Virus record (IMG/VR): IMGVR_UViG_3300008113_008855
Coordinates: 1-54,667 of that record
Direction: 5' to 3' (one strand)
DNA from: a virus
Taxonomy: Duplodnaviria > Caudoviricetes
DNA length: 54,667 nucleotides
How positions within the stretch are numbered: the first letter of the stretch is position 1; each line of letters opens with the position of its first letter. A program made the position numbers and the translations under genes. The notes beneath the pieces were generated by a model. That model was not told where the DNA came from. It searched no databases and saw nothing but the letters and a program-made list of their open reading frames with translations. Of the stretch, positions 5,980 through 53,674 are shown one piece after another.

Positions 5980-6287
5980 TTTAGTTTAATTTTTTTATCA
6001 CTCTTTGAGAAAGACAAAAATACAGAAGTATAATTTTCGTTTTCACTAAAAATTCTGCCGAGAGTATCTAGCACATCTTGAGACATGCCAAGCATTTGAT
6101 CCATGTAAATTTTTTCCAGCTCTAAGCTTAGTCTCTTATTATCCTTCTTGCAGTCACAATCAACTACTGAAGTGTAGCAAAAATTAAGAAACTTTTGAAG
6201 TTGCTCGCTCTTTATTATCTCCTCAGGATGAGCGGCCAAAAGCTTACAGAATTGAAATACGTCTTTTATTTCAAGCGCTCTTTCCAT
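5976..6287 (-). CDS. Hypothetical protein
   Basis: 103-aa ORF overlapping its neighbours in an operon. Confidence 0.65.
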   Translation of the reverse strand: MERALEIKDVFQFCKLLAAHPEEIIKSEQLQKFLNFCYTSVVDCDCKKDNKRLSLELEKIYMDQMLGMSQDVLDTLGRIFSENENYTSVFLSFSKSDKKIKLK

Positions 6288-6615
6288 AAATTAAAATCTT
6301 ATACATAAGCAAGTAAAACCCATAAACAGCCAAGGGATTCTGTCTCCCTAAACTAACCGCTAAGCAACACCAAAATCCAAAACAATATGGACATGACATT
6401 AACCTAGTAATAAAATTATTGTTTCTTGTCTTTAAAAAATCAAAATAATTTACACCTGTTCCGTTAGAAAGCTTAAAACAAAAGTACTCCTCAAGTTTCA
6501 ATAGCCTATTTAGCTTGAAAAGCTTGCAATACTCAACGAGAGCTTCGGTATGATACAGGACATAAATCACTGCCGTTACCATTGAAGCCAAGCAAAGACT
6601 AGCCTGAATGTCCAT
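6271..6615 (-). CDS. Membrane protein, DUF1360-like (CPYC..FW)
   Basis: Hydrophobic segments and LMSCPYCFGFW; likely start ATG at 6615 overlapping the dUTPase end. Confidence 0.55.
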   Translation of the reverse strand: MDIQASLCLASMVTAVIYVLYHTEALVEYCKLFKLNRLLKLEEYFCFKLSNGTGVNYFDFLKTRNNNFITRLMSCPYCFGFWCCLAVSLGRQNPLAVYGFYLLMYKILIYGKSA

Positions 6616-7021
6616 ATCCCTTATCTCCTCTCTTGGTTTCGGCAAGGTTTTCAGACTTTATCCAGTTAATATCGTGGCACTTTTCGATAATAATCTGAGC
6701 AATCTTGTCTCCTTTGTTTACCTCAAAGTCAATATTTAAATCTGTATTTAAAAGAATCACTCCAATGTCTCCTCTATAGTCAGCATCTATTACACCTGCC
6801 ATTACATCTATGCCGCTCTTGTATGCCAATCCAGAGCGCGGAGCAATCCTTCCATAGAAGCCAATTGGAATTGCTAACGAGATATTGGTTTTAATTAGCT
6901 TTCTTGATTGCCTAGAGACCGTTACGGTTTCTGCGGCATACAGATCGTATCCAGCAGAAGAGCCAGTAGCCTTTGTTGGCAAAACCGCTGAATCAGACAA
7001 AAACTTAATATGGATGTCCAT
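6599..7021 (-). CDS. dut: Trimeric dUTPase
   Basis: Motifs AGYDL, RSGLA, GVIDADYRG, KIAQII, RGDKGYGHSG. Confidence 0.97.
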   Translation of the reverse strand: MDIHIKFLSDSAVLPTKATGSSAGYDLYAAETVTVSRQSRKLIKTNISLAIPIGFYGRIAPRSGLAYKSGIDVMAGVIDADYRGDIGVILLNTDLNIDFEVNKGDKIAQIIIEKCHDINWIKSENLAETKRGDKGYGHSG

Positions 7022-7027
7022 AGCAGA

Positions 7028-7055
7028 ATTATGTAAATTTCTATATAAAAGTCAA
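7028..7055 (-). promoter_or_regulatory. Sigma70-like promoter TTGACT-N16-CATAAT
   Basis: -10 ends 6 nt before the dut ATG; back-to-back with the promoter at 7064. Confidence 0.7.
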
Positions 7056-7063
7056 CTTAAAGT

Positions 7064-7091
7064 TTGCCTTTTTTTTATTAGCTATCATATT
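7064..7091 (+). promoter_or_regulatory. Sigma70-like promoter TTGCCT-N16-CATATT
   Basis: -10 ends 7 nt before ATG 7099. Confidence 0.65.
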
Positions 7092-7098
7092 TGTTAAT

Positions 7099-7506
7099 AT
7101 GACTATATTAGATGCATATCAAAATCTAAACGAATTCTTTAATGAGAACCAAGTCCTGAATCTGCGAAGAGACTTTAGAAAAGTTGTTTTGGTAACCGAT
7201 AGAGAAAACGACGATAAGGCTTCGGTTCTTTGTGCTTTGGCAGAGATGGAAAAGTCTGGAATCGTAAAGTCAACCACAATTGAAAATGAAGTTTATTGGG
7301 TTTTATTTAAACCTCTTGAAGCCTTTTCTCAAGATGTGGAGGTTAATTATTTGCTTGCAGCAGGTATCGCAAGTGTAATAAATAAAGTCTGCGAAGCTCT
7401 TAAGAATGATTCTGATAAATGTGATCCAAAAAATATCACGGAAAAAGATCTGAAGAATCTGATATTTATTGCATCTAAGGTCTCAGAGGAGAATCTTAAG
7501 AATTAG
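7099..7506 (+). CDS. Hypothetical protein
   Basis: 135-aa ORF with its own promoter; first gene of the long plus-strand block. Confidence 0.75.
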   Translation: MTILDAYQNLNEFFNENQVLNLRRDFRKVVLVTDRENDDKASVLCALAEMEKSGIVKSTTIENEVYWVLFKPLEAFSQDVEVNYLLAAGIASVINKVCEALKNDSDKCDPKNITEKDLKNLIFIASKVSEENLKN

Positions 7507-7507
7507 T

Positions 7508-7535
7508 TTGACTTTAAAGGAAAACGGTCAATCGT
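7508..7535 (+). promoter_or_regulatory. Probable promoter of the structured RNA, TTGACT-N16-AATCGT
   Basis: Same -35 and spacer as the other promoters but a weaker -10; predicted start ~7542-7543 coincides with the first paired base of the RNA. Confidence 0.5.
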
Positions 7536-7542
7536 TCTTTGA

Positions 7543-7966
7543 ATAGTTGCGCGGGAGGTAGCTTGAGCAAAACCATGCTCACTTAAAGATAGCATCTTTA
7601 TTTAAACTCGTAAGAGACAACAAGCCCGTAAAAAGACTACAGTGGTTGAGAGAAATCTCAGCGTTTGTTCGGGAGAAGCGGCGTCCTAAAAAGGCCACTG
7701 TATAAAACTGCTAGAAACTTATTCCTCTCAAATGGAAAAGGCGATGGCTGTGTCAAAAAATAAGTCACCCGCAAAACAACTATAGAAATAGCAAATCTCA
7801 GTTACTAGCTAAACGGACTATCTAAAGCCGGAGATGCGATGACTGATGTAGGTGAGATTTGGTTAAATAAACTGAAATATAAAAGTTTCAGTTGACCTGC
7901 TATTTCTTTAGCCAACTCAATGGAAAATTCAAAGGCGATGGCTGTTTCCGAAACACAAAGGAAACA
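7543..7966 (+). ncRNA. Large multi-domain structured RNA of unknown family (ncRNA or leader of the sigma-factor gene)
   Basis: ORF-free 460-bp gap with nested helices: 7543-7549/7777-7783, 7551-7555/7768-7772, 7638-7645/7695-7702, 7717-7723/7759-7765, 7784-7793/7898-7907, 7793-7800/7853-7860, 7870-7877/7886-7893, 7943-7949/7960-7966, plus GAAA/GTAA tetraloop hairpins; G-U pairs favour the plus strand. Confidence 0.7.
7737..7945 (+). repeat. Direct repeat AAAGGCGATGGCTGT x2
   Basis: Exact 15-mers at 7737-7751 and 7931-7945, each associated with an upstream CTCAA(A)TGGAAAA. Confidence 0.85.
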
Positions 7967-7968
7967 CC

Positions 7969-8574
7969 ATGGAAAAAGTAAAAATTCAACACTCGGAGCT
8001 TGACCTTATATCAAAGGTTAAACTGGACAACTGCAACGATAGTTTCGGTGAGCTTTCTAAGCTCTACGACAACTTTTATTACTCCATCGCCCAAAAATAT
8101 TCTTCGACCTTAGTAAAGGCTGGGATGAACAAGGACGATATCAAATATGAGAAAGACTTCATTCTTTATAAAGCAGTTAAGTCTTTCGATGCGAAGCAGA
8201 AAACGAAGTTTTCAACTTGGTTCTGTAACTGCGTTAAATATCATTTCTTGAACTATATTAACTCCAACAAGAAGTACATGCTTGCTGAAGAAAACAAAAT
8301 AGACTTCTTTAATAACAAGGATATTTTAGTTTCTGTAGATAAGAATAATGATACTTACTCTTACCTGTTATCTCTACTCTCTTCTTTTAAGGACGAAAGA
8401 ATCAGGCAGGTTTATGAATTGAGATATTTTTCAGGAGGAGAGAAGCTTGCCACTTGGAATTCTATAGCCAAAAAGCTTGGAGTTAGCACTCAGACAGCTA
8501 TAAACTTGCACGAAAAGACAAGATCTTTTTTAAAAAATAAAGTCCAGAGCAAAAATTCTTGTGATTTTGTTTGA
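7969..8574 (+). CDS. Phage-encoded sigma-70-family RNA polymerase sigma factor (regions 2 and 4 only)
   Basis: Region 2 LYKAVKSFDAKQKTKFSTWF; region 4 HTH YELRYF...TWNSIAKKLGVSTQTAINL. Confidence 0.85.
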   Translation: MEKVKIQHSELDLISKVKLDNCNDSFGELSKLYDNFYYSIAQKYSSTLVKAGMNKDDIKYEKDFILYKAVKSFDAKQKTKFSTWFCNCVKYHFLNYINSNKKYMLAEENKIDFFNNKDILVSVDKNNDTYSYLLSLLSSFKDERIRQVYELRYFSGGEKLATWNSIAKKLGVSTQTAINLHEKTRSFLKNKVQSKNSCDFV

Positions 8575-8598
8575 CAAATTTGTTTTTACGACCATACT
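8571..8598 (+). promoter_or_regulatory. Sigma70-like promoter TTGACA-N16-CATACT
   Basis: -10 ends 9 nt before ATG 8608. Confidence 0.7.
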
Positions 8599-8607
8599 CA
8601 GTGGGTA

Positions 8608-8913
8608 ATGAACGATAATAAAAACGAAAATAACTGGACTCGCCGAGAAGTCGGTGCCTTGTGGACTAAACTCAGCAAGGATAAGAGTCAGAAGTACATG
8701 ACTGGACATATCCAAACCTCGTTGGAAGGAAAGATCGACATCGTGATTTTCTCCAATAAGGAAAAGAAGACAGATAAGGCTCCTGATTTTAGGATCTATT
8801 TGTCTGAAAAGAAAAATGATTCTGTCGCCTCAAGCGCGAATGTGAAGAGTGGGGCTTCGCAGAGCCGACCAAAGCCTCAAGAAGAGTCTTTGGAAGATGA
8901 GGGTGTTCTCTAA
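8608..8913 (+). CDS. DUF736-like ssDNA-binding protein with acidic tail
   Basis: EVGALW...YMTG...KAPDFRIY pattern and C-terminal EESLEDEGVL. Confidence 0.65.
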   Translation: MNDNKNENNWTRREVGALWTKLSKDKSQKYMTGHIQTSLEGKIDIVIFSNKEKKTDKAPDFRIYLSEKKNDSVASSANVKSGASQSRPKPQEESLEDEGVL

Positions 8914-25981: not shown

Positions 25982-26394
25982 AACTCTTTAATATATATGG
26001 TAAAATTGTAAATAAGAATGTCTCTGAATATCTTATTGATTGGGATGCTAGTTCTCGTTCTAAAATACAATTTAAAACCAAGCAATTCCTTAAGAATTAC
26101 TGGAAGAACCATATAGTCTACGAAGAATTTCCCGTCTTTGGATCCCTGTTAAAAGTTGACATTATCAACGCAACGCGCAAGATTGCTGTGGAAGTTCATG
26201 GTCCGCAGCACTCTTCTTACAACAAATTCTTTCATGGCGAATCTAGATTGAATTATCTTAAATCAATCAAAAGAGATGTCGCAAAAGAAAATTGGCTTAC
26301 CTTGAACAAATTTGTCCTGATTGAAATATATCATGACGAAGTAGACTCCCTGAACGCAAGCTTCTTTAAAGAAAAACATAATATCATTCTCTGA
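25978..26394 (+). CDS. Vsr/DUF559-like PD-(D/E)XK endonuclease
   Basis: YEEFP...VDI......AVEVHGPQH...RD..K pattern. Confidence 0.7.
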   Translation: MKLFNIYGKIVNKNVSEYLIDWDASSRSKIQFKTKQFLKNYWKNHIVYEEFPVFGSLLKVDIINATRKIAVEVHGPQHSSYNKFFHGESRLNYLKSIKRDVAKENWLTLNKFVLIEIYHDEVDSLNASFFKEKHNIIL

Positions 26395-27857
26395 TGTCGA
26401 TCTACTCCTTACAGCTAGAAAAATATCTCCTATCTGCCCTAATTAAGCATCAAGATGCTTTTGCAGATATAGAGAGCTTTATTACCGAAAACGATTTCGT
26501 CAATGATGTCCATTATACCATCTTTTGTGTATATAAGGACACATATAACAAGGGCGAGACTATTGATAAAGTTCTAATAGCCCAGAAAGCAAAAAATCTC
26601 GGCATCACATTTAAAGATCAATCTGTTGATGTATTTAATTATGTTAATAGTATTTGTCTTATTCCTACGACTAAGGGCGGGCTAATTGATGCTGCTAAAG
26701 AGCTTCTTAAATTTAGAGTAAGGAGAGAGCTAGAAGAGACTGGCGAGGAGATTAAGAAGTTCGCACATTCTTGTGCCGAAAAAGAGCTTGAGGAGATTAT
26801 TACTGAAAGCGATCAGATCTACAATAAAAATATATCCCCATATACTCATAACAGTAATAAGCCTGAAGATATTACTGCTAATACAATTGAGATTATTGAG
26901 GAGCGCGGTAATAATCCAATCAAAGAAACTGGCCTTGAAACTCCATATCCAAACTTCAACAGGTTATATGGTGGCGTAAGACCCGGAAATCTATACGCTT
27001 GGGTTAGCCGACCAAAGCATGGTAAATCTACAATCTTGAATGATCTGGCTATCAAGACTACAACTATTAATCCTGGTTGTAAAGCCCTTGTTCTTGATAC
27101 CGAAATGTCTACTCAAGATATGAAGTTTCGAGTTGCTTCTTCTATAACTCAAATTCCCGTTTGGTATCTAGAAACTGGCAACTGGAAAAAAAGCCCAAAT
27201 TTATACAAACTTTTCCAAGAAAAGAAAAGTGAAATCTTAAAGATCCAAAACCAAGTAGATCATGTTCAGGTTTCTGGAAAGCCAATCCACGAAGTAATAT
27301 CTATTATTAAGAGATGGTATTTTGCAAAGGTGGGCCGTGGCAACCCATGTGTTGTTATTTATGACTACATCAAGCTCACTGGAGAGTCTGATAAGAATAA
27401 GCAAGAGTATCAGTTGATTGGAGATAAGGTAAACTCTTTGAAAGAGCTATGCTCAGAACTTAATATTCCAATTCTAACAGCTTGCCAATTAAACCGCAGC
27501 GCAGAGAACGGAGTTGACGATAGTAGCGCTATTTCTCAATCTGACCGCTTGCAATGGTTCGCTTCATTTGTAGGCATCTTTCGCAGAAAGACTGTAGAGG
27601 AGATTGCTGACGATGGAGAAGAGTTTGGTTCCCATAAACTTATTCCTCTTGCGACAAGATTCCAAGGCAAAGATTCCGCTGGTCATCACGATCTAGTTAG
27701 AATCAAAGAAGGCAAGAAAATAAAATATGCCCCAAATTATGTAAGCTTTAATATTCTGAACTTCAATGTAGAAGAGAAGGGAACTCTAGAAGATATTATT
27801 TCTGCTAGAGCTTTGCGACCTGAGTTGGATGATTCTGGAGATGGCGAAATTCTATGA
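26394..27857 (+). CDS. dnaB: DnaB-like replicative helicase
   Basis: N-terminal LEKYLLSAL domain, RPKHGKS Walker A, DTEMS, IYDYIKL, CQLNR, SDRLQ. Confidence 0.9.
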   Translation: MSIYSLQLEKYLLSALIKHQDAFADIESFITENDFVNDVHYTIFCVYKDTYNKGETIDKVLIAQKAKNLGITFKDQSVDVFNYVNSICLIPTTKGGLIDAAKELLKFRVRRELEETGEEIKKFAHSCAEKELEEIITESDQIYNKNISPYTHNSNKPEDITANTIEIIEERGNNPIKETGLETPYPNFNRLYGGVRPGNLYAWVSRPKHGKSTILNDLAIKTTTINPGCKALVLDTEMSTQDMKFRVASSITQIPVWYLETGNWKKSPNLYKLFQEKKSEILKIQNQVDHVQVSGKPIHEVISIIKRWYFAKVGRGNPCVVIYDYIKLTGESDKNKQEYQLIGDKVNSLKELCSELNIPILTACQLNRSAENGVDDSSAISQSDRLQWFASFVGIFRRKTVEEIADDGEEFGSHKLIPLATRFQGKDSAGHHDLVRIKEGKKIKYAPNYVSFNILNFNVEEKGTLEDIISARALRPELDDSGDGEIL

Positions 27858-30361: not shown

Positions 30362-30989
30362 ACTACTAAGATTCGACAAGTCTAAAAAGCTTGTCTTTAT
30401 CGATTGCGAGACGTTAAATCTCTGCCTTAACTTCTGCCAGAATCTTCCTTGGCAGATTGCAATGTTGAATACTGTCGGTGGTAAAAAAATTGATGAGCGA
30501 GATTTCTTGATTAAATGGGAAACTAATCTTAAGATATCAGAAGATGCCAGACGAATCACAAGATACCCTGAACAACTTATCCAAACAACTGGCAAGAAAT
30601 TTGACGATATCTTTGATACTGTTAGGGATTGGCTTGACTCTGCTGACTACATTGTTGGTCACAATATTCTTGGCTTCGATCTCTACCTTATAAAAGAGAT
30701 GTATTTGCTCAAAGGATTGCGAGCAAGTCATTTGGTTAATAAAATACTAGACACTAATTGCTTGGCTAAAGGAATCAAATATGGAATCCCCAAGATGCCA
30801 AAAGAGTCTTTAATTGAATACCAATATAAGCTTTTACATACCTATAAAAAAGGAATCAAAACTAATTTAACCGCGCTTGGCAAAGACTACAGCATTGATC
30901 ATGATTACGACAATCTTCACAATGCTATCGTAGACTTAGAACTTAACCTTAAGGTTTGGAATAAAATTAAATTTCAAGTGGAAATATGA
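30351..30989 (+). CDS. DEDDh 3'-5' exonuclease (epsilon/DnaQ-like)
   Basis: FIDCET, VGHNILGFD, ILDT, LHNAIVD. Confidence 0.88.
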   Translation: MENELLRFDKSKKLVFIDCETLNLCLNFCQNLPWQIAMLNTVGGKKIDERDFLIKWETNLKISEDARRITRYPEQLIQTTGKKFDDIFDTVRDWLDSADYIVGHNILGFDLYLIKEMYLLKGLRASHLVNKILDTNCLAKGIKYGIPKMPKESLIEYQYKLLHTYKKGIKTNLTALGKDYSIDHDYDNLHNAIVDLELNLKVWNKIKFQVEI

Positions 30990-33553
30990 AAGACTTTAAT
31001 TCTCTTTTCTCAAATATGAAGCTGCCATTGTATGGCGTAAGACTTCCTGAATTCAATATCGAGAGCCGCTTGAAGAAGCAGTATGGCCTTAAAGAGGACT
31101 CTTCTAACTATGATTTCTTGATGCAGGTGTGCAGAGCAAATTTCAAGAAGCTTAAAATTGCAAAAGAGGATTTCCCAAAATATTCAGAAAGAGTAAAATA
31201 TGAACTTGAGACCATTAAAGAACTTGGATTTCTTGACTATATTCTTTTGGTTTGGACTGTTATTAACTACTGTAACGAAAATTCCATACCTGTCGGTCTT
31301 GGGCGCGGTTCTGCTGCTGGTAGTCTTATTCTTTATTTGTTGGGAGTTACTAAAGTAGACCCAATTAAGTACGAACTATTCTTCGAGCGCTTCATCTCCA
31401 AGATTCGAGCCAAGAAGCAAGTAGTTGACGGCATCACTTATCTTGATGGGTCTTTGATGTGCGACGTAGATATTGATATCTGCTACTACAATCGGCCAAA
31501 GGTTATTAAATTTTTGGAGCAGTTGTTCGCAGGAAGAACATCTAAGATTCTTACTTTGACAACTTTGAGCGGCAAATTGCTGATCAAAGAGTGCGGAAAG
31601 ATCATTGATGAAAAGCCTGAAACAGAAATGAATGATGTTAGCTCTTTGATTCCAAAGACTTTCGGTCAGGTCATGGATCTTAAAGAGGCTTATGGTGAAG
31701 TTGAGCAGCTTAAGAATTGGTGTGACGAAAATCCAAGATCCTATAAAACTGCTCTAAAGCTCAGAAATCTAATCAAGAATAAGAGCGTTCATGCATCTGG
31801 AATGATGCTTTCATACTATCCAATAGAACAAAGCTGCCCCACTGAACTTACCACAGACAAAGAACAGGTGTCTAGTTATGACATGAACTGGGCTTCTATC
31901 TCTAATGTTAAGCTTGATCTACTCGGATTGCGCAGCGTGTCTATCGTTGATAGAGTTTGTAAGCTAGTTGGCATTAAAGTCGATGATCTTAATTTTAATG
32001 ATCCATTCATTTATCAGCAACTTCAAGATCTGAGAACTCCTCATGGATGCTTCCAGATTGAAGCTGATACTAACTTCAAAGTTTGCAAAAAGGTAAAACC
32101 AAGAAACCTAGAGGAATTAAGTGGCGTTCTAGCTCTTGCTCGACCGGGAGCTTTGGAGTTCGTTGATCAATATGCTAATTTTACAACTAACAACCACTAC
32201 GAAGGAATCCATGAGTTCTTTGACTCTGTGCTTAGCGGCAGTGGTGGCGTTGCATTGTATCAGGAGCAGTTGATGAAAATGTCCAACAAGATTGGCTTTA
32301 CTCTTGATGAAGCAGAAGTGCTGCGCCGAATCGTTGGTAAAAAGAAAGTCGAAGAGGTTAAAAAGTGGCAAGAAAAGATTGCTGAAAAGATCAAAGAAAA
32401 CAAATTAGCTCCAGAAATTGGAGACATTCTTTGGCGCATTCTTGAAAATTCAGCCAACTATTCATTCAACAAGTCTCACTCAATGAGCTATGCTGCTCTT
32501 GCGGCTTGTACTGTTTATCTTAAATTTAGACATCCTAAGGAGTTTTTCTTGGCTTTGCTTGAGATGACCAAGCACGAACCAGCGCCGCTAGAAGAAATCT
32601 CAAAGATCCAGAAAGAGCTTCGCCACTTTGGGATTACTTTGCTTGGTCCTCATATATTAAAATCAGATACAGATTTTTCTATTCAAGGAAATAACATTAG
32701 ATTTGGATTGTCTTCTATTAAGGGCATCTCTGAAAAGACGATGGACAAATTGAAGAACTTTAAATCAGATCAATCTAATAAATTTGAAGTATTTCAAGCT
32801 GCTAAGGAAGTTGGTATTTCTATTGGTGTTTTGTCTGCTCTGATTCAGGCTGGAGCATTGGATGGCTTCTCTACCTCTAGAAGTCGAGTCGTTCTTGAGG
32901 CTCAGCTTTGGAACGTCTTAACAGACAAGGAAAAAGTATTGAGTATGGAACATGGCCCAGATCAAGACTACGACTTGCTAAAGACTGTCAAGAAACTATC
33001 AGAAACAAAAAATGAAAACGGCAAGTTCCTTATTAAGGAAACTCGCCTAGAAACAATTAAAAAGAAATACGATCCATATCTAAAGATCTATCAGCAAAAT
33101 AATAAATCAGAAAGCTTTGCCAACTGGTTCTATGAAAATAAATTACTTGGCTATAGTTATGATAAGTCTTTGAACGCCATCTTCTCCCAAAAGATGCCAA
33201 ATCTAATATCTACTTCTAGAGCTATGGAATCTTCTGAAAACCAGATGGTTTACATAGTCGGCAAGGTAGAAGAAGCTTCTGAATGGACATCTAAAAACGA
33301 GAAAAAAACCAGAGTATTTAAGATGATCGTTTCTGACGAATTTGGATCTATTCCAGTTCTTACTTTCAACGATAAGATTGATTTTAATAAATCATCGAAT
33401 AATGAAAAGCTTCCTGAAAAAGACGACATAGTTATCGTTAAAGGAGTTAAAAAGAAAGACTGCCTTTTTGGCGATACCATTGGAATTCAAACCTTAAAAA
33501 TTTACACAAAACTGTCCGAATTAAAAGAAAAAAATCTTGACAATCAAGAGTAA
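30986..33553 (+). CDS. dnaE: DNA polymerase III alpha catalytic core (lacking PHP)
   Basis: GLGRGSAAGSL, LFFERF, DVDID, HASG, KLDLLGL, LYQEQLM, YSFNKSH, IRFGLSSIKG, C-terminal OB fold. Confidence 0.95.
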   Translation: MKDFNSLFSNMKLPLYGVRLPEFNIESRLKKQYGLKEDSSNYDFLMQVCRANFKKLKIAKEDFPKYSERVKYELETIKELGFLDYILLVWTVINYCNENSIPVGLGRGSAAGSLILYLLGVTKVDPIKYELFFERFISKIRAKKQVVDGITYLDGSLMCDVDIDICYYNRPKVIKFLEQLFAGRTSKILTLTTLSGKLLIKECGKIIDEKPETEMNDVSSLIPKTFGQVMDLKEAYGEVEQLKNWCDENPRSYKTALKLRNLIKNKSVHASGMMLSYYPIEQSCPTELTTDKEQVSSYDMNWASISNVKLDLLGLRSVSIVDRVCKLVGIKVDDLNFNDPFIYQQLQDLRTPHGCFQIEADTNFKVCKKVKPRNLEELSGVLALARPGALEFVDQYANFTTNNHYEGIHEFFDSVLSGSGGVALYQEQLMKMSNKIGFTLDEAEVLRRIVGKKKVEEVKKWQEKIAEKIKENKLAPEIGDILWRILENSANYSFNKSHSMSYAALAACTVYLKFRHPKEFFLALLEMTKHEPAPLEEISKIQKELRHFGITLLGPHILKSDTDFSIQGNNIRFGLSSIKGISEKTMDKLKNFKSDQSNKFEVFQAAKEVGISIGVLSALIQAGALDGFSTSRSRVVLEAQLWNVLTDKEKVLSMEHGPDQDYDLLKTVKKLSETKNENGKFLIKETRLETIKKKYDPYLKIYQQNNKSESFANWFYENKLLGYSYDKSLNAIFSQKMPNLISTSRAMESSENQMVYIVGKVEEASEWTSKNEKKTRVFKMIVSDEFGSIPVLTFNDKIDFNKSSNNEKLPEKDDIVIVKGVKKKDCLFGDTIGIQTLKIYTKLSELKEKNLDNQE

Positions 33554-37886: not shown

Positions 37887-38156
37887 TTACCACTTTCCTG
37901 CTGGACAGCTTTCAAAATCTAATTTTACTTTAATAGTAACAAAGCATCCACACAGTTCGCATCTGCCGCTTTGCTTGCAAAGCTTTGGGCATTTGTTGCA
38001 AATAGATAACCTCTTTTCCGCGCTATCCGGATTAGAGGTTATTTTTTCATTATTTATTATTGCTGAAGCGGCTTTCTTTGATGAAGAGACAAGGCTATTT
38101 TTAATTTTTAAACCTTCCTTCATTAAACTGGAAAACGAAAGATCGTTTTGACTCAT
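37887..38156 (-). CDS. Small Cys-rich protein, DUF6171-like
   Basis: RLSICNKCP....RCELCGCF...K......CPAGKW. Confidence 0.7.
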   Translation of the reverse strand: MSQNDLSFSSLMKEGLKIKNSLVSSSKKAASAIINNEKITSNPDSAEKRLSICNKCPKLCKQSGRCELCGCFVTIKVKLDFESCPAGKW

Positions 38157-41100
38157 ATCTTAATTGTACTAGGATAGAAGTTAGAATATCTAAAATCTAA
38201 TGTAGTGCTAGAAGAAGTCCCGCAAGTTTCAGAGCAAAAAACCTGATATGTATTTTTTATTCCATTTGGCAAAGCCAAAGCTGAAGCTGTTCCACTAGCA
38301 GACTCAGACAATCTTCCTCCTGTATAAAATCTAAAATTCCTTGTTTGAGTTGGTACGTCTATTGGAACATTTGTATTTGCTGGTATGGCTCTTGGATAAG
38401 CGTCTCCGAAAACTCCATTGCAACTAATAAATCCCACCCCGCCCTCTTGATATGGCTCGTAAGAAGAGCAAGAGTAAGTCAATTTTGTTTCTATTGCTAA
38501 GAATTTTTTCTTTAGACTTCTAACAAAAGATGCTGGCAAAGCTTTTTCCATCCAAGGGTGTACAAAAGGATTGAATGACATAGAATCTGAATACTCTGTA
38601 GATCTAATATAAACTCCTTGCCCACCGGTTACTTTTTGAGGGATATCCTGATTCTTTAAGTCTACTCTATTTACTGATCTACCAGCTGATACTCCAATGA
38701 TAGAATTAACTGGTAAATAATAGCTATATTTGCCAGGAGAAGAAACCTTATCTCCACCTGTGCTAAAATTAATAATCTTGTTTTTATCTGGCTCTTCATC
38801 TTTTAGGTAGTATTCATTAAATTGCCTTTCAAAATCAATCGCCCAAACCATTGGGAGAATGACTCTTGCTTCATTTAGATTATTTATTCCATCTACCAAT
38901 CTGTTGAAAAAGCTATTGGCTCTTGGTAACATGTTCGGAAGAGTTCCGTAAGCTGGCGCTCCATCAGCCCTCGACTCAAGAGGCAGCAACGTTAACCAAG
39001 GAGGCGCAGCGGCAGTGTCATAGATTGAGATTGCAGCGCTCGCATCTGTATAAACGTCTAGATTGCTCAAAGAGAAGGTTTGACCGCTCTTGGTGGTAGA
39101 TATGAAATTTTCATTTAATACCGTTGCATCAGATCCCTCTATTATTGATGATGAGCTGTTTACCGAGCTAGGAACGCTAGAGTCTTCAATCTCTGGCGTG
39201 GCAGCGTCAGTATCTTCATTATATATAGAAACGTTTTCTAATGGATTGTTGTATTTATCTGCGTAGAGCTTAGAAATTTGATACCAAAATGGATCAAGTT
39301 TAAGCATTGACGTTTCGTCTTCTGGATTTATATTAGTGTTTATGTAAGTTGATGCTGATCCAGAGTTGGCGTTTGTTTGTTCGGCGGCATTTTGCTGAGC
39401 TATATTATTTCTTGATAAGTAATCTTGTAGCACTTTAGCTTCTTGATCGTCTAGCGCGGCATCATTAGATCCAACTTGATTTAATGGCTTGCCGCCGTAT
39501 AGAGAAGCTTTTAGTTTGCTAAATGAGCTATTGATTGGTTTTAAAAACTCAGGAATATCGGTTCTTTTTGTTGATACAATCTTATATGAAGATTTTATAA
39601 TTGGAGTTAGATCGCTAAATGTTTGAATCCTTTTATCTGATTCGGTTTTAAACATTGAGTACCCATAGCCAGGATCAATGATTTTAATTCCTGATATCTT
39701 TCCGTATTCATTTAATACAACCTCTGCTTTTGCAGGCTTACCATTAGAATCTATATTAGGATCAGGAAGCTGAACCTTTGGAGCAATCAAAAACACTTCA
39801 TCAGGCTTAACTGGCAAATCAATGTAAGTTATTGTGCCTTCTCTAATTGGATCTGTGTAGAAAGCTTTTGATTCAGAAGTTAATTTATATAATGTTTTAA
39901 GTGTTTGAGTTATTGTGGCTGAGCCTTGATTATCTATAGCCAAATAAGTCATTCCTTCTATTTTATCGAACTCTTTAAACCCCCTATCTGGCAATCTGAT
40001 TCCTCTCAAAGCGTAATCATCTAAGTTAAAAGAAATTGTATTATCAGCCGCATTTCTTGATGTTGATCCTATAAACTCATCATAAACAAGATAATTCCAA
40101 GTAGGAGGCAGCAGCATCTTATCGAAAGAATATTCAACTGATCTATACGCAGTAGTGCAAGTTACATTGTGCTTTTCTATTTGTATTTTAAGATTTGCTG
40201 TTTTATTATCTAGGTTAGAGATTTTATCAAATAGATTTAAATAAGCTTGATTTACAGACGATCTCTTGAGCCTCAAAACAAATTTATCTTCATCTATATT
40301 ATAGTTTTCATTGTTTCCAAGCTTTAATGATGTAGCACTTAGAATAGTTCTGTAAACTGACCCATCATAGTATTGTACCGATACTTGTAAATCTGTTGTT
40401 AAAACACTAGCAGTAGCATTAAAAAGACTATAGTTATAAAAATCTTCTACTATTTTCCAAAACAAGATAACATCAGTAGTTAGCCCGCTTTGGTCTTTAA
40501 TTATATTAATGCATGGCAAGATTTCTGACACGCAAGCTGGATAAACGAATCCTTTATAGTTGTTAGATATAGAATTCTTTGGAGTTGCTTCGTACTGGAA
40601 TCCAGTAAAATATTCTCCACCTACAAATAGATTTACAATGAACTCTTGATCGGATGTCTTACCTTTGAATTTATCAAAATCTGAAAACAAGTGAGCAAAA
40701 GAGTGCTCGATCTTCTCGGTTGTTGAGCCTCTAACTGCCGTTATATTTTCTGCTTGTTTGTAAGTTTCTGAAATTTTTGCTTTTATTTCGTATCTTAATG
40801 CTGCTGGCTGCTTTTGATTTATTGTTAGATCTGGAACTGTGCCGCTTGGGTTCGCTACTCCTTCTAAGCCTAAAGCGTCAAAGAACAAAAATCTTTCTTT
40901 GCTAAAGTAATCCCCAAGCCCAGTGGCCGTGGTTTTAACTAGAAAGAAAATGGCAGATCCTATAGATGGGACATTAATTTTGATTTTATTGAAGATTATT
41001 GAATATCCAGAAACATCTTTATTATCATCTAGGATTTCAGTTACAGATGACGATCCTATATCTAAAGTTATTGGGGTCCAGCTTGGCGCTATTTCATTCT

Positions 41101-41629
41101 TATATAAAAGCTGTATTGATGTTACTAGTTTAAAATCAAAGTCTTGAATCTTATCTAAAACTATCTTTCCTTTTACTATGTTGAATGAATTAGATTCCCT
41201 TTCGATAGAGAATCCAGAAGTTTCATTATAAATCGCTCCAACCGCTGGAGATTTATTTTTAGAGTTATAGATTATTTGAGGATCTGAAGTGACTACAGTT
41301 GATATTGAGTTTGTTGCTCTAACTGAAATTTTTGTAGAGTAAGTTCTATCTAAAGCGACCTTATAATTCTGCTCTGATAATTCAGTAACATCATATATAA
41401 AAGGATCCCCAAAATTATCATAAGTTCCATAAGTTATATTTTTTTCTACCCTTTGAACTATCAATTCGATTTTTACAGCATTGCTTACTTCCCAATAAGC
41501 AAATATTTCACTTAGTGTTGAGGCTTCGCTAAGATCTACCTTAAAAAGCAATTTAACTACAGGATCAGAAGTAGAGCCCTGATCATTGCCATCTTGAAAT
41601 ATAGGAATTGTTCCTTGAGCTATTGGCAT
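38153..41629 (-). CDS. Large virion structural protein (tail/baseplate)
   Basis: 1158 aa; contains AKAEVVLNEYGKISGIKIIDPGYGY, a beta motif common in myophage baseplate/tail proteins. Confidence 0.6.
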   Translation of the reverse strand: MPIAQGTIPIFQDGNDQGSTSDPVVKLLFKVDLSEASTLSEIFAYWEVSNAVKIELIVQRVEKNITYGTYDNFGDPFIYDVTELSEQNYKVALDRTYSTKISVRATNSISTVVTSDPQIIYNSKNKSPAVGAIYNETSGFSIERESNSFNIVKGKIVLDKIQDFDFKLVTSIQLLYKNEIAPSWTPITLDIGSSSVTEILDDNKDVSGYSIIFNKIKINVPSIGSAIFFLVKTTATGLGDYFSKERFLFFDALGLEGVANPSGTVPDLTINQKQPAALRYEIKAKISETYKQAENITAVRGSTTEKIEHSFAHLFSDFDKFKGKTSDQEFIVNLFVGGEYFTGFQYEATPKNSISNNYKGFVYPACVSEILPCINIIKDQSGLTTDVILFWKIVEDFYNYSLFNATASVLTTDLQVSVQYYDGSVYRTILSATSLKLGNNENYNIDEDKFVLRLKRSSVNQAYLNLFDKISNLDNKTANLKIQIEKHNVTCTTAYRSVEYSFDKMLLPPTWNYLVYDEFIGSTSRNAADNTISFNLDDYALRGIRLPDRGFKEFDKIEGMTYLAIDNQGSATITQTLKTLYKLTSESKAFYTDPIREGTITYIDLPVKPDEVFLIAPKVQLPDPNIDSNGKPAKAEVVLNEYGKISGIKIIDPGYGYSMFKTESDKRIQTFSDLTPIIKSSYKIVSTKRTDIPEFLKPINSSFSKLKASLYGGKPLNQVGSNDAALDDQEAKVLQDYLSRNNIAQQNAAEQTNANSGSASTYINTNINPEDETSMLKLDPFWYQISKLYADKYNNPLENVSIYNEDTDAATPEIEDSSVPSSVNSSSSIIEGSDATVLNENFISTTKSGQTFSLSNLDVYTDASAAISIYDTAAAPPWLTLLPLESRADGAPAYGTLPNMLPRANSFFNRLVDGINNLNEARVILPMVWAIDFERQFNEYYLKDEEPDKNKIINFSTGGDKVSSPGKYSYYLPVNSIIGVSAGRSVNRVDLKNQDIPQKVTGGQGVYIRSTEYSDSMSFNPFVHPWMEKALPASFVRSLKKKFLAIETKLTYSCSSYEPYQEGGVGFISCNGVFGDAYPRAIPANTNVPIDVPTQTRNFRFYTGGRLSESASGTASALALPNGIKNTYQVFCSETCGTSSSTTLDFRYSNFYPSTIKI

Positions 41630-41631
41630 AA

Positions 41632-43386
41632 TTAAATTTGATATAAGGGTATATAGTTTACATTTACAGTTATTTCATTTTCAGAAAAATCTGTGTCAGC
41701 CGAAATTAAAAGAGAATAAACATAATCACTCACCTTAGAGAATGTTACACCATTTACCTCTGCGTTTACATCAAAAAAACCTGCTACTCCAAAAGTCAAA
41801 GAAGCAGCATCTACTTGTATGTATTTTGGATAATCTACAGTATTGACTATTGATCCATTAATGTCTTTTAGCTGCAATTTGGCATAAAGCTTCTGACCTT
41901 TTTTTAATTTGTCGGCGGCAGTTGTAAGAGCCAAATCGCTATAAAACTTAACTATAGCAGGCTCTTCAGCAGATAATCTTAGAGGAAAAGAGTAGGAAGA
42001 ACTTGTTAATGTTGCTTTTCTTATGGTTTCTACGCCAGAAGAAGCTGACAAACTTGTTGCTGTTATCCTTATGCTTATAGATGAAGCTTTCGATACATTT
42101 AAATTATCAACAGTAACCGTTTGGCTATCTGTGCTTGTTGAGTAAGAAGTTCTGGTATATAGAGAATCTATAATGTTGCCACTTTGATCTATTATTTCGT
42201 AAAGTATTTGTTCCGCTCCGGAGTATGAATATGAAAAAGTAACCGAAGCAGAACCAGCATCAGAGAATAAAACTGAATCTATAGTTGAACTAGAAACAGC
42301 AGGCGTTGTAGTATAAGTCGTTTTAAAATAGAAAGGAAAGATAAACTCTGTGCCATCTTGAAGTATTACTGCTATATTTACTTTTCCATACTCATCCAAT
42401 GCAGCATACAATTCATCTATAGTTAAGATATAAAAACTTGAAGAAGCCAATTCTACAGCATCATAAGACCCTACTCGTATGAATAGAGTGCCGCTAAAAG
42501 TATAGTTAAGTCTAAATCTAAAGTCTGTAGTCGTAGTTGAAGCTCTATAATAATAGTAAGTTAAAGAAGCTCCCTGAGCGAAATTGTTTCCAGAAATTTC
42601 ATTTAATAAAGCCCCATTAGCATCATAAAAAACTGACGCAGATATTCCTCTATACAATCTAAATTGTAAAGTGTCTATAGTTATATTCTTCTTGATTTCT
42701 ATAGAAGCTGAAGCTGCAAAAATACCAGAAGCCTCCGTATCTAAATCGTAAAAGTAATTTCTTACTTCGACATGTAAAGTTCCATACTTTCCTACTGTAG
42801 AGATTGTAGATATTTGATTTGTCCCATCAGCAGAATCTGTAATAGCCTGAGTAAAAGATTCTCCGCCTTCAAAGTAATATATGATAGAAGTTCCATAGTC
42901 AGAAATTACTTGAACTTTATCGTTATCTAAAAGATTTAGTTTAACAACAGGAATCTTTATTGTTGGTCTAAAATCTACCAAATAATCTGTTGTATCAGAA
43001 CCATTATCTGCTTGAAATTTATAAGAAAAAGTAAACGATTGGTTTCCATAAGAAGAGTCAAAATTATAAGCGAAATAATTTGAAGTCTTTAGTGTTTGAT
43101 TTTGATACCTCTGAGTTGTCGTTTTCACAGGAGCTGAGCCAACTAAAATTTCTGTTGAGCCATCTGGCTTTATGTACTTAACATAAGAGAAATTATAAGC
43201 ATAAACATTTAACACATTAGCTAAATTAGGCAAATCTTTATACAAGAAAACCTCATCTGAATTTACATTATCTATTCTAACAAAAGCAACCTTAGTAATT
43301 CCAGAGCATAATTGATCGTCAGCAAGCTTAACTATTGAGCCTCCAGAATATTGGATCATGATGTTTCCACCAAGATCACACGCCAT
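41632..43386 (-). CDS. Putative virion structural protein (Ig-like, S/T-rich)
   Basis: 584-aa beta-rich ORF in the structural operon. Confidence 0.55.
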   Translation of the reverse strand: MACDLGGNIMIQYSGGSIVKLADDQLCSGITKVAFVRIDNVNSDEVFLYKDLPNLANVLNVYAYNFSYVKYIKPDGSTEILVGSAPVKTTTQRYQNQTLKTSNYFAYNFDSSYGNQSFTFSYKFQADNGSDTTDYLVDFRPTIKIPVVKLNLLDNDKVQVISDYGTSIIYYFEGGESFTQAITDSADGTNQISTISTVGKYGTLHVEVRNYFYDLDTEASGIFAASASIEIKKNITIDTLQFRLYRGISASVFYDANGALLNEISGNNFAQGASLTYYYYRASTTTTDFRFRLNYTFSGTLFIRVGSYDAVELASSSFYILTIDELYAALDEYGKVNIAVILQDGTEFIFPFYFKTTYTTTPAVSSSTIDSVLFSDAGSASVTFSYSYSGAEQILYEIIDQSGNIIDSLYTRTSYSTSTDSQTVTVDNLNVSKASSISIRITATSLSASSGVETIRKATLTSSSYSFPLRLSAEEPAIVKFYSDLALTTAADKLKKGQKLYAKLQLKDINGSIVNTVDYPKYIQVDAASLTFGVAGFFDVNAEVNGVTFSKVSDYVYSLLISADTDFSENEITVNVNYIPLYQI

Positions 43387-44209: not shown

Positions 44210-44210
44210 A

Positions 44211-53673: not shown

Positions 53674-53674
53674 A

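What the first reader, a model, noticed from the sequence alone, without database searches (positions are those of the whole stretch)
7543..8574. A ~425-nt multi-domain structured RNA transcribed straight into a phage sigma-factor gene
Seen: this is the only long ORF-free gap in an otherwise tightly packed genome, and it folds by eye into nested domains. Domain 1 is closed by ATAGTTG/CAACTAT (7543-7549/7777-7783) and GCGGG/CCCGC. It holds two multi-way junctions: GCTT/AAGC enclosing three hairpins, and TACAGTGG/CCACTGTA enclosing TGAGA-GAAA-TCTCA and two more. A CCCG(7625-7628)/CGGG(7670-7673) pseudoknot is possible. Domain 2 is closed by AGAAATAGCA/TGCTATTTCT. GNRA tetraloops and G-U pairs point to a plus-strand RNA, and a TTGACT-N16 promoter would start it at its first paired base. 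It ends 2 nt before the ATG of a region-2/region-4 sigma factor. I cannot match it to RNase P, tmRNA, 6S, group I/II introns or a riboswitch I know. Inference: an undescribed RNA-sigma module. It could be a timing switch for late transcription, an RNA cofactor bound by the sigma factor, or a put/EAR-like processive antiterminator at the head of the 30-kb co-directional block.
Basis: partly seen in the sequence, partly recalled or inferred. Interest (0 to 1): 0.9.

Follow-up and report, generated by a model that had tools for sequence, protein, structure and literature searches.

The report
Large pseudoknotted RNA of aquatic phages
The gap in front of this phage's sigma-factor gene encodes an intricately folded RNA of about 400 bases that many uncultured lake and ocean phages share, that matches no catalogued RNA family, and whose job is still unknown.

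Summary
Window 7507-7968 is the longest ORF-free stretch. It carries a structured plus-strand RNA of about 405 nt (about 7543-7950).

- **Spread.** Homologues turned up in 67 of 68 viral contigs that match a 24-letter core pattern. They also turned up in 76 of 80 fetched metagenome contigs, from lakes and oceans. None turned up in 185,579 species genomes.
- **Known families.** Rfam 15 has no match. ARAGORN finds nothing.
- **Structure.** Covariation supports two domains tied together by four long-range pairings. In the window's clade 89.6% of cells pair, and 87.7% pair in 46 other sequences; slid controls give 36-45%.
- **Repeat.** A 10-18-nt repeat (R1/R2) is identical within a genome but differs between clades, in 113 of 127 complete loci.
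- **Link to sigma.** A sigma gene always lies downstream, but often behind a dNMP-kinase gene with its own promoter, or a tRNA.

So this is a stand-alone RNA gene rather than a dedicated sigma leader. Its function is unknown.

The parts
7099..7506 (+). Upstream ORF of 135 aa with no family assigned. It ends one base before the gap.
   Evidence: ORF list. No Pfam, PHROG or NCBIfam match. A homologue sits next to the RNA in another clade.
7508..7535 (+). Inferred promoter: a -35-like TTGACT at 7508-7513, a 16-nt spacer, and a weak -10-like hexamer at 7530-7535 (3 of 6).
   Evidence: The hexamer is invariant in 5 of 5 close sequences. My own scan puts it at a fixed distance from the core in the window's clade. 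The tool's scan does not call it. The start near 7543 is inferred.
7543..7950 (+). Body of the non-coding RNA, about 405 nt. Both ends are inferred.
   Evidence: nhmmer with the family profile matches 7528-7950 once in the window. Covariation supports the fold. RNA-library contigs cover 7530-7690 and 7758-7915.
7543..7783 (+). Domain 1. It is closed by P1 (7543-7549 with 7777-7783) and P2 (7551-7555 with 7768-7772).
   Evidence: P1 has 6 of 7 and P2 has 4 of 5 pairs changed on both sides. P2 is 99.6% paired in 46 other sequences.
7561..7679 (+). P3, a long-range pairing of 7561-7564 with 7676-7679. The 3' strand lies in the loop of helix P8.
Evidence: Mutual information picks out these columns; two pairs changed on both sides; 100% paired, with UA:22 GC:14 CG:10 at one pair.
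7565..7616 (+). Three hairpins: P4a 7565-7580, P4b 7585-7599 and P5 7607-7616. P5 has a GNRA loop.
   Evidence: P4b has 5 of 5 pairs changed on both sides. P4a is nearly invariant. P5 is 94.4% paired.
7618..7894 (+). PKd, a long-range pairing of 7618-7621 (core of domain 1) with 7891-7894 (3' part of domain 2).
   Evidence: Mutual information finds it, with 100% standard pairs at the best column pair; 100% paired. In A6 three of four pairs change on both sides (CG:34 AU:12, AU:25 UA:21, CG:41 AU:5).
7625..7673 (+).
   Evidence: Invariant in A5. In A6 it is 100% paired, with CG:42 UA:4 at one pair.
7638..7702 (+). Junction closed by P6 (7638-7645 with 7695-7702). It holds P7 (7647-7660) and P8 (7661-7665 with 7680-7684).
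   Evidence: P6 has 5 of 8 and P7 has 3 of 5 pairs changed on both sides. P6 has 6 of 6, P7 has 5 of 5 and P8 has 3 of 5.
7708..7751 (+). Hairpin H1: element Z1 (7708-7720), the small hairpin 7722-7737, and repeat R1 (7737-7751).
   Evidence: The repeat is exact; 94.1% paired, and the pair GC:9 AU:5 GU:4 changes in the same way in H1 and H2. Swap test for Z1: 15 of 5000 permutations reach the observed value.
7763..7844 (+). PKb, a long-range pairing of 7763-7767 (just before the 3' strand of P2) with 7840-7844 (inside domain 2).
   Evidence: 95.5% paired; 99.1% paired, with three pairs changed on both sides (GC:39 AU:6, CG:39 UA:5, CG:44 AU:2).
7784..7907 (+). Domain 2. The closing helix is 7784-7792 with 7899-7907, of which only the inner five pairs are kept. 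Inside it lie P12/P13 (7793-7805 with 7848-7860), inner helices at 7808-7837, and hairpin P16 (7873-7890).
   Evidence: the closing helix is 69.1% paired with no informative variation. P12/P13 have 8 of 12 and P16 has 4 of 5 pairs changed on both sides.
7897..7945 (+). Hairpin H2: element Z2 (7897-7909) paired with repeat R2 (7931-7945). It cannot form together with the closing helix of domain 2.
   Evidence: 77.1% paired in other clades, against 73.8% in shuffles and 32-54% in slid controls.
7944..7965 (+). Small hairpin whose 3' strand overlaps the purine-rich stretch before the sigma start codon. It is specific to the window's subgroup.
   Evidence: RNAalifold on 4 sequences. Other clades have different sequence at this place.
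7969..8574 (+). Sigma-70-family (two-domain, ECF-like) sigma factor gene of 201 aa.
   Evidence: Pfam Sigma70_r2 at E 2.8e-5. PHROG 351 at E 2.4e-10. NCBIfam TIGR02937, profile positions 5-164 of 165, at 36.5 bits, below the cut-off of 42.9. 192 homologues.

Best explanation
**What it is.** The interval is the single-copy gene of a stand-alone, non-coding RNA of about 405 nt. It is read from the plus strand, from a host-type promoter that stands just right of the point where leftward and rightward genes diverge.

**How it folds.** The RNA works as a folded molecule. Domain 1 (7543-7783) and domain 2 (7784-7907) are locked into one compact body by four long-range pairings: P3, PKa, PKb and PKd. 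Many invariant unpaired bases sit at the junctions. That pattern is typical of RNAs that bind a partner or catalyse a reaction.

**The two hairpins.** Two hairpins, H1 and H2, carry the same stem sequence and a similar loop. My best guess (inferred, about 40%) is that they present two copies of one recognition site to a single partner that reads sequence. The alternative (about 25%) is that their strands swap with each other and with the closing helix of domain 2 as a conformational switch.

**Relation to sigma.** In the window's clade the same transcript probably runs on into the sigma gene. In most other clades the next gene has its own promoter.

**Status of the claims.** Shown: conservation, fold, strand, copy number and gene context. 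Inferred: the promoter, both ends of the RNA, action in trans, and any partner. The biological function is not known.
For: **Family**
- 67 of 68 viral contigs that match the core pattern are homologues at nhmmer E of 1.7e-13 or better.
- 76 of 80 fetched metagenome contigs are homologues.

**Fold**
- In A5, 89.6% of cells pair, against 79.6% in shuffles (0 of 500 reach it) and 36-45% when partners are slid. 40 of 97 pairs change on both sides.
- In A6, 87.7% pair, against 75.0% in shuffles (0 of 500) and 38-43% when slid. 63 of 88 pairs change on both sides.
- Mutual information found the long-range pairs independently.

**Strand**
- G-U cells outnumber A-C cells, 118 to 37 in A5 and 341 to 83 in A6.
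- The plus strand folds at z -4.5 and the minus strand at z -2.5.

**Stand-alone gene**
- A promoter-like site scoring 9 of 12 or more lies upstream in 33 of 86 unique loci, against 28 of 308 control windows, and at a fixed distance from the core.
- A promoter-like site of 9 of 12 or more lies downstream of R2 in 32 of 78 loci (examples).
- A tRNA starts 6 nt after the RNA extract in L119.
- A dNMP-kinase-like gene lies between the RNA and sigma in many clades.

**Copy number.** One match in the window, one in an 84%-complete record and one in a 100%-complete record.

**Repeat and hairpins**
- An exact repeat of 10 nt or more stands at the expected places in 113 of 127 complete loci.
- The variable part of R is complementary to its own Z1 and Z2 more than to those of other clades. 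15 of 5000 permutations reach the observed value for Z1 and 0 of 5000 for Z2.

**Transcription (weak).** Contigs from RNA libraries of three of four runs lie on the RNA. In run X16 the only two contigs are 7530-7690 and 7758-7915.
Against: **Ends and transcription**
- No transcript end was seen. Only assembled contigs of low depth (2-8) were available, and DNA carry-over cannot be excluded.
- Contigs of X15 (7405-8047) and X18 (7300-7840) bridge into the neighbouring genes.
- The X16 contig starts at 7530, 13 nt before my inferred start.

**Promoter**
- The window's own promoter is below the scan's threshold and was not called.
- 53 of 86 loci score under 9 of 12.

**Leader role.** In the window's clade there is neither a promoter nor a terminator between the RNA and sigma. 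There the RNA is also, or only, a 5' leader.

**Hairpins H1 and H2**
- Support in the other clades is moderate: 77.1% paired against 73.8% in shuffles.
- The swap test with the whole repeat was weak: -10.5 against -9.6 kcal/mol.

**Controls and partner**
- The sequences are related, so the shuffle controls overstate significance, as the tool itself warns.
- No partner, target or activity was identified.
Confidence: 0.75

Rival explanations
1. It is a cis-acting leader. The RNA would act only on its own transcript, in one of two ways. It could gate expression of the next gene through the choice between the domain-2 closing helix and hairpin H2. Or it could make RNA polymerase resistant to termination through the long rightward gene block, in the manner of put or EAR elements.
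For: - In the window's clade only 23 nt separate R2 from the sigma start, with no promoter-like site. Sigma must therefore be transcribed through the RNA.
- The closing helix of domain 2 and H2 cannot both form.
- The RNA stands at the head of co-directional genes from 7099 to about 37886.
- A small hairpin overlaps the purine-rich stretch before the sigma start.
Against: - In many other clades the next gene is a dNMP-kinase-like gene, not sigma. It has its own promoter-like site after R2: 32 of 78 loci score 9 of 12 or more.
- A tRNA follows the RNA in L119.
- The hairpin over the sigma ribosome site is not conserved outside the window's subgroup.
- By recalled knowledge, known cis antiterminator RNAs are 70-120 nt. 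About 400 nt with four long-range pairings is far more than such a role needs.
Confidence: 0.15
2. It is a self-processing ribozyme. The conserved pseudoknotted core would cleave, or otherwise process, the primary transcript at or near the two identical sites. That would release a stable RNA and define the 5' end of the downstream message.
For: - Invariant unpaired bases lie at junctions inside a multi-pseudoknot core.
- Two identical sequences would suit recognition by one internal guide.
- R2 lies at the boundary between the RNA and the next gene in all clades.
Against: - There is no similarity to any ribozyme model in Rfam.
- No joint or cut ends were seen, although the contigs could not show them.
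- R1 lies inside domain 1, upstream of the 3' strands of P1 and P2. A cut there would split the fold.
Confidence: 0.07
3. It is a DNA element. The repeats R1/R2 and Z1/Z2 would be iterons, or binding sites of a DNA-binding protein, at a replication origin or a regulatory region next to the divergent promoters.
For: - Direct repeats that change in concert between genomes are what sites of one DNA-binding protein would do.
- The interval lies about 450 nt from the switch of gene orientation.
- It lies at a local minimum of cumulative GC skew, in the bin 6001-8000.
Against: - GC skew follows gene orientation here, so it is not independent evidence.
- Covariation keeps Watson-Crick and G-U pairs on the plus strand. 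G-U exceeds A-C by 118 to 37 and by 341 to 83. This includes long-range pseudoknots, which have no meaning in duplex DNA.
- A promoter-like site stands at a fixed distance upstream.
- The repeat has no further copies in the window.
Confidence: 0.03

Closest known systems
GOLLD and ROOL (large 'ornate' non-coding RNAs, often carried by phages)
   Same: - It is a large, heavily structured, stand-alone RNA of unknown function carried by phages.
- It was found through metagenomes.
- It can lie next to tRNA genes, as in L119.
   Different: - There is no sequence or structure match to their Rfam models in the window or in 16 diverse loci.
- It is smaller, about 400 nt.
- Whether it forms multimers, as I recall for those RNAs, was not tested.
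- Of the cryo-EM paper on them (10.1101/2024.12.08.627333) I saw only the search listing and the start of the abstract.
put RNAs of phage HK022 and EAR RNA (cis-acting processive antiterminators); recalled
   Same: It is an RNA element just downstream of an early promoter, at the head of a long co-directional gene block.
   Different: - It is several times larger.
- In many clades it is followed by a separate promoter or a tRNA.
- No Rfam match was found.
- Antitermination was not tested.
boxB hairpins of the nutL and nutR sites of lambdoid phages; recalled
   Same: Two hairpins are near-identical within one phage but differ between phages. In the nut case this is explained by one phage-specific RNA-binding protein reading both.
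   Different: - Here both hairpins lie in one RNA, about 190-240 nt apart, inside a much larger fold.
- No candidate protein was identified.
- This is an analogy for the concerted change only. It is not a claim of homology.
6S RNA
   Same: It is a non-coding RNA that could, in principle, act on RNA polymerase holoenzyme. It lies near a sigma gene.
   Different: - The 6S hallmark, as I recall it, is one long irregular hairpin with a central bubble. It is absent here: the fold has two domains and several pseudoknots.
- There is no match to the Rfam 6S models.
tmRNA
   Same: It is similar in size and has several pseudoknots. I also recalled a loose resemblance of an A-rich stretch to the region before the tmRNA tag frame.
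   Different: - ARAGORN finds no tmRNA, whether standard or permuted.
- No Rfam tmRNA model matches.
- No tRNA-like end is visible.
- The stretch in question is part of helices P2 and PKb.

Membership tests
Any Rfam 15 family (4227 models, including RNase P, tmRNA, 6S, group I/II introns, riboswitches, GOLLD, ROOL, HEARO, OLE, raiA) | A covariance-model score at or above the family's gathering threshold. | tested here: not met
   - 0 matches in the whole window.
- In permissive mode on 7400-8100, only rliB at 17.4 bits (threshold 40) and SAM-II at 14.6 bits (threshold 44).
- 16 diverse loci give only 3 tRNAs.
- The RNA of L096 in permissive mode gives only a snoRNA model at E 3.1.
tmRNA | A tRNA-like acceptor and T-arm domain plus a tag reading frame. 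| tested here: not met
   ARAGORN finds 0 tRNA or tmRNA genes in the window. No Rfam tmRNA match.
Group I or group II intron | It interrupts a gene, with exons flanking it, and matches the intron core. | tested here: not met
   - It lies between two complete ORFs.
- A promoter-like site stands directly upstream.
- Its neighbours differ between clades.
- No Rfam intron match.
Riboswitch or other dedicated 5' leader of the sigma gene | It always lies directly upstream of the regulated gene, on the same transcript, with an expression platform. | tested here: not met
   - The RNA sits directly before sigma only in the window's clade and a few others.
- Elsewhere a kinase-like gene, up to three genes, or a tRNA lie between them, often with a promoter-like site after R2.
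- For the window's clade alone the test is inconclusive.
Processive antiterminator RNA (put, EAR) | The nascent RNA modifies the transcribing polymerase in cis, so that terminators downstream are read through. | not testable with these tools
   - Only position could be assessed: the RNA heads a block of about 30 kb.
- No Rfam match.
- The only terminator-like site in 6900-8700 is hairpin P7 inside the RNA.
6S RNA | A single extended hairpin with a large central bubble that mimics an open promoter (recalled). | tested here: not met
   The covariation-supported fold has two domains and four long-range pairings. No Rfam 6S match.
Template RNA of a reverse transcriptase (retron, DRT-type); considered because a direct repeat flanks a segment of about 200 nt | A reverse-transcriptase gene in the same element. 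| tested here: not met
   Pfam RVT_1 has 0 matches in 3 of 3 records searched: the window, an 84%-complete record and a 100%-complete record. The control genomes gave hits. A host enzyme cannot be excluded.
Replication origin with iterons (a DNA element) | Repeats that act as duplex DNA, with no constraint on RNA pairing. | tested here: not met
   Covariation is strand-specific, with G-U far above A-C, and it includes pseudoknots. The origin itself was not mapped.
Sigma-70 family, for the downstream ORF | Region 2 and region 4 domains. | tested here: met
   - Pfam Sigma70_r2 at 24.3 bits, cut-off 24.
- TIGR02937 is aligned over profile positions 5-164 of 165 at E 3.6e-9, but at 36.5 bits, below its cut-off of 42.9.
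- PHROG sigma families match.
- Region 4 has no Pfam hit of its own.

The most novel reading that the evidence does not exclude
This is a new class of large functional RNA, either a ribozyme or the RNA core of a ribonucleoprotein. A widespread lineage of uncultured aquatic phages would express it early, to take over or reprogram host transcription together with their own sigma factor. The two hairpins that change in concert would be a paired docking site, or a strand-swap switch, of a type not described for any other RNA.
Probability: 0.25. Interest if true: 0.9.

Novelty: new variant of a known kind. Interest (0 to 1): 0.75.

Why it matters
- **Rarity.** Large, highly conserved, multi-pseudoknot RNAs are rare. 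Nearly every one whose function was solved turned out to be a ribozyme, a ribonucleoprotein core or a new regulatory principle.
- **Abundance.** This one is abundant in public lake and ocean data.
- **Where it lives.** It is confined to phages. There are no members in one genome each of 185,579 species.
- **Gene context.** It sits in the early gene block, next to the phage's own sigma factor.
- **Structural puzzle.** Two hairpins stay letter-for-letter identical within a genome while drifting between clades.
- **Ready for the bench.** The alignment and fold given here support chemical probing, cryo-EM, cleavage assays and pull-downs without a cultured host.
- **Caveat on novelty.** The RNA may already be one of the more than ten thousand unnamed candidates in a published catalogue of phage RNAs (PMC10690425). 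I could not see that paper's supplementary tables.

Tried and rejected
**Ideas tested and dropped**
1. **Known RNA family.** Rejected.
2. **The repeat R is a promoter or operator used elsewhere in the phage.** There are only the two exact copies in the window, plus two matches with 3 mismatches, against 1.06 expected by chance.
3. **R targets the sigma mRNA.** An eight-letter complement lies at 8084-8091. In 22 loci, however, the repeat's best site in the 2.6 kb downstream was no better than for repeats of other clades, and its place was not conserved. Rejected.
4. **R holds a start codon of a small ORF or of the next gene.** The ATG is present only in some clades, and the peptides are not conserved (my reading). 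Rejected.
5. **R pairs with the stretch just upstream of the RNA.** This was the best duplex in the window, but that stretch is the promoter and the pairing is not found in other clades. Rejected.
6. **Reverse-transcription template.** No RT gene was found.
7. **Prophage or host copy.** 8 of the 9 pattern matches in species genomes match only the motif itself, 25-29 nt at E 0.002-2.1, and one has no match.
8. **Cultured relatives.**
   - The RNA has no DNA match among 50,697 phage records.
   - The sigma protein has no tblastn match there.
   - The DnaE-type polymerase is under 33% identical to any isolate.
   - The host therefore stays unknown.
9. **Whole-repeat swap test.** It gave only a weak signal. 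The test restricted to the variable part was clearer.
10. **L138.** It carries the core pattern by chance and looks coding. I left it out of all alignments.

**Limits of what I could see**
- **RNA-library contigs.** Parts of the region have no cover in the four runs laid. This says nothing either way.
- **Literature.**
  - Three full-text searches and a term search inside PMC10690425 (0 hits for 'sigma') found no description of this RNA.
  - Of the other papers I saw only the listings.
  - Supplements were closed.
- **Rows dropped.**
  - A5 and A6 use 18 and 46 of the 86 unique complete sequences. Sequences over 95% alike were thinned, and six loci without a detectable repeat were left out.
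  - The 39 metagenome stretches beyond the 80 fetched were never seen.
Full report
**What is at the coordinates**

The window is a 54.7-kb fragment of an uncultured virus record, estimated 36% complete. Positions 7507-7968 lie between a 135-aa ORF of no known family (7099-7506) and a 201-aa sigma-70-family gene (7969-8574). This is the longest stretch of the window without an ORF of 40 or 60 aa in any frame.

The plus strand folds much better than shuffled sequence: -127.7 kcal/mol, z -4.50, 0 of 100 shuffles as low. The minus strand gives z -2.48. No Rfam 15 family reaches its threshold anywhere in the window. The permissive mode on 7400-8100 lists only two chance-level matches. ARAGORN finds no tRNA or tmRNA.

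**It is a conserved family, far wider than the window's relatives**

- Four viral contigs with a sigma protein 80-91% identical carry the same interval. It is more conserved than the end of the upstream ORF, and compensatory changes are visible.
- A 24-letter degenerate pattern taken from the most conserved stretch matched 68 viral contigs. 67 of these are homologous over most of the RNA by nhmmer. The odd one, L138, is GC-rich coding sequence.
76 of the 80 fetched are homologues, from marine as well as freshwater samples.
- In one genome each of 185,579 bacterial and archaeal species the pattern matched nine times. None extends beyond the motif.
- The RNA has no DNA match, and the sigma protein no tblastn match, among 50,697 phage records. 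The DnaE-type polymerase is under 33% identical to any of them.
- The RNA occurs once per genome, including in one record estimated complete at 174.5 kb.
- Rfam finds nothing in 16 diverse members except three tRNAs. It finds nothing in a permissive scan of one distant member.

**The fold**

I tested an explicit structure on two alignments. A5 holds 18 distinct sequences of the window's clade. A6 holds 46 sequences of the other clades.

| Measure | A5 | A6 |
|---|---|---|
| Cells forming standard pairs | 89.6% | 87.7% |
| Same, in shuffles | 79.6% (0 of 500 reach it) | 75.0% (0 of 500) |
| Same, with 3' partners slid by 1-3 columns | 36-45% | 38-43% |
| Pairs changed on both sides | 40 of 97 | 63 of 88 |

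The sequences are related, so the shuffle figures overstate significance. The slid controls and the number of distinct pair types are the safer guide.

- Correction 1: 7561-7564 pairs with 7676-7679, in the loop of helix P8, not with 7622-7625.
- Correction 2: only the inner five pairs of the ten-pair closure of domain 2 are conserved, and they never vary.
- Mutual information then revealed two further long-range pairings, which the counts confirmed.
  - 7618-7621 pairs with 7891-7894. It is 100% paired in both alignments, and three of its four pairs change on both sides in A6.
  - 7763-7767 pairs with 7840-7844. It is 95.5% paired in A5 and 99.1% in A6.
- Four long-range pairings therefore tie the two domains into one body.
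- G-U cells outnumber A-C cells, 118 to 37 and 341 to 83. This fixes the plus strand and argues for RNA rather than duplex DNA.

**The repeat**

A 15-letter sequence stands at 7737-7751 (R1) and again at 7931-7945 (R2).

- An exact repeat of 10-18 letters stands at the same two places in 113 of 127 complete loci, and in 78 of 86 unique ones. The sequence differs between clades, with about 30 variants.
- Each copy follows a short element, Z1 at 7708-7720 and Z2 at 7897-7909. These two are also alike and change together.
- The variable part of R is more complementary to its own Z elements than to those of other clades. For Z2 the mean is -7.23 against -5.97 kcal/mol, and 0 of 5000 permutations reach it. 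For Z1 it is -4.83 against -3.85, with 15 of 5000.
- In A5 the two hairpins are 94.1% paired, and the same pair changes GC to AU to GU in both. In A6 the support is moderate, 77.1% against 73.8% in shuffles.
- H2 and the closing helix of domain 2 use the same bases, so they are alternatives.
- Why two hairpins must stay identical is not explained by pairing alone.
- Several explanations were checked and found no support.
  - There is no further copy of the repeat in the window.
  - There is no cognate target in the 2.6 kb downstream.
  - There is no conserved small ORF.
  - There is no reverse transcriptase in three records.

**Gene context**

- All 35 viral members with at least 1.7 kb of downstream sequence have a homologous sigma gene on the same strand, 0.35-2.6 kb from the RNA core. 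Two members with less flank have it too.
- The ten members without a sigma hit have at most 1.1 kb downstream.
- The whole block is syntenic: upstream ORF, RNA, sigma, a DUF736-like ORF and a glycosyltransferase.
- In many clades a dNMP-kinase-like gene lies between the RNA and sigma.
- A promoter-like site scoring 9 of 12 or more follows R2 in 32 of 78 loci.
- In L119 a tRNA starts six bases after the RNA extract.
- Seen from the sigma side, only 29 of 80 loci with a sigma homologue have the RNA within 1.5 kb upstream.
- Upstream of the RNA, a promoter-like site of 9 of 12 or more lies at a fixed distance from the core in 33 of 86 loci, against 28 of 308 control windows.
- The window's own site has a good -35 hexamer but only 3 of 6 in the -10 hexamer. 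The scan did not call it.

**Transcription**

Only assembled contigs of RNA libraries could be laid.

- Run X16 has two contigs, 7530-7690 and 7758-7915, both inside the RNA, and none on its neighbours.
- X15 has one contig at 7405-8047, and X18 has several between 7300 and 8034.
- X17 covers only the 3' half of the sigma gene.
- Depths are 2-8, and DNA carry-over cannot be excluded.
- This is a weak hint of transcription. It gives no ends, and the X16 contig starts 13 nt before my inferred start.

**Reading**

- The evidence best fits a stand-alone, single-copy gene for a compact, multi-pseudoknot RNA of an uncultured lineage of aquatic phages. It would be expressed from a host-type promoter in the early gene block.
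- In the window's clade the same transcript probably also carries the sigma gene, so a leader role there stays open.
- The function is unknown. I commit to an RNA that acts through its fold.
  - My first guess is that the two identical hairpins are a doubled site for one sequence-reading partner.
  - My second guess is a strand-swap switch.
- Rivals, in order of weight, are a purely cis-acting leader or antiterminator, a self-processing ribozyme, and a DNA element.

**Novelty**

- The RNA matches nothing in Rfam 15.
- Three literature searches found no description of it.
- The catalogue of phage RNA candidates (PMC10690425) does not mention sigma in its text, but its supplementary tables could not be read.
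- I file it as a new family within the known kind of large, phage-borne structured RNAs. It has one feature, the concerted pair of hairpins, for which I know no precedent inside a single RNA.

Noticed in passing
window 7028-7055 (minus strand) and 8571-8598 (plus strand): Two promoter-like sites score 10 of 12. One heads the leftward genes. The other stands right after the sigma stop, before ORF 8608-8913, which matches Pfam DUF736.
   Followed up: no
window 7099-7506: This 135-aa ORF has no Pfam, PHROG or NCBIfam family. It is nevertheless conserved next to the RNA in at least one distant clade (L093 homologue). It is a candidate partner of the RNA, but that was not tested.
   Followed up: partly
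L093, L096, L110, L152 and others, between the RNA and sigma: A P-loop ORF of about 200-220 aa resembles deoxynucleotide monophosphate kinase (Pfam DNMK at 30.5 bits in L096). It is inserted between the RNA and the sigma gene in many clades and has its own promoter-like site.
   Followed up: partly
L119 1310-1382; L211 326-479: tRNA genes lie next to the RNA in some relatives. In L119 the tRNA starts six bases after the RNA extract.
   Followed up: no
window 30986-33553 and 26394-27857: The replication genes are a DnaE-type (Pol III alpha-like) polymerase and a DnaB-like helicase. The polymerase is under 33% identical to any of 50,697 phage records. The phage lineage therefore has no cultured relative in that collection.
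   Followed up: partly
window 38153-54616 (minus strand): A run of very large ORFs of 1158, 584, 277, 2157, 1003 and 313 aa lies on the minus strand. The 584-aa one has no PHROG match. The others were not examined.
   Followed up: no
L138 (viral contig, GC 0.58): It carries the 24-letter core pattern, and even an 11-letter direct repeat at a similar spacing. It looks like coding sequence and has no other similarity, so this is a chance match.
   Followed up: yes
L098, L105, L118, L167, L176, L180, L216, L226: Eight unique members have no exact R1/R2 repeat of 10 nt or more. L098 also has a large insertion in domain 1, and its sigma gene lies farther away. These members could show whether the repeat is dispensable.
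   Followed up: no
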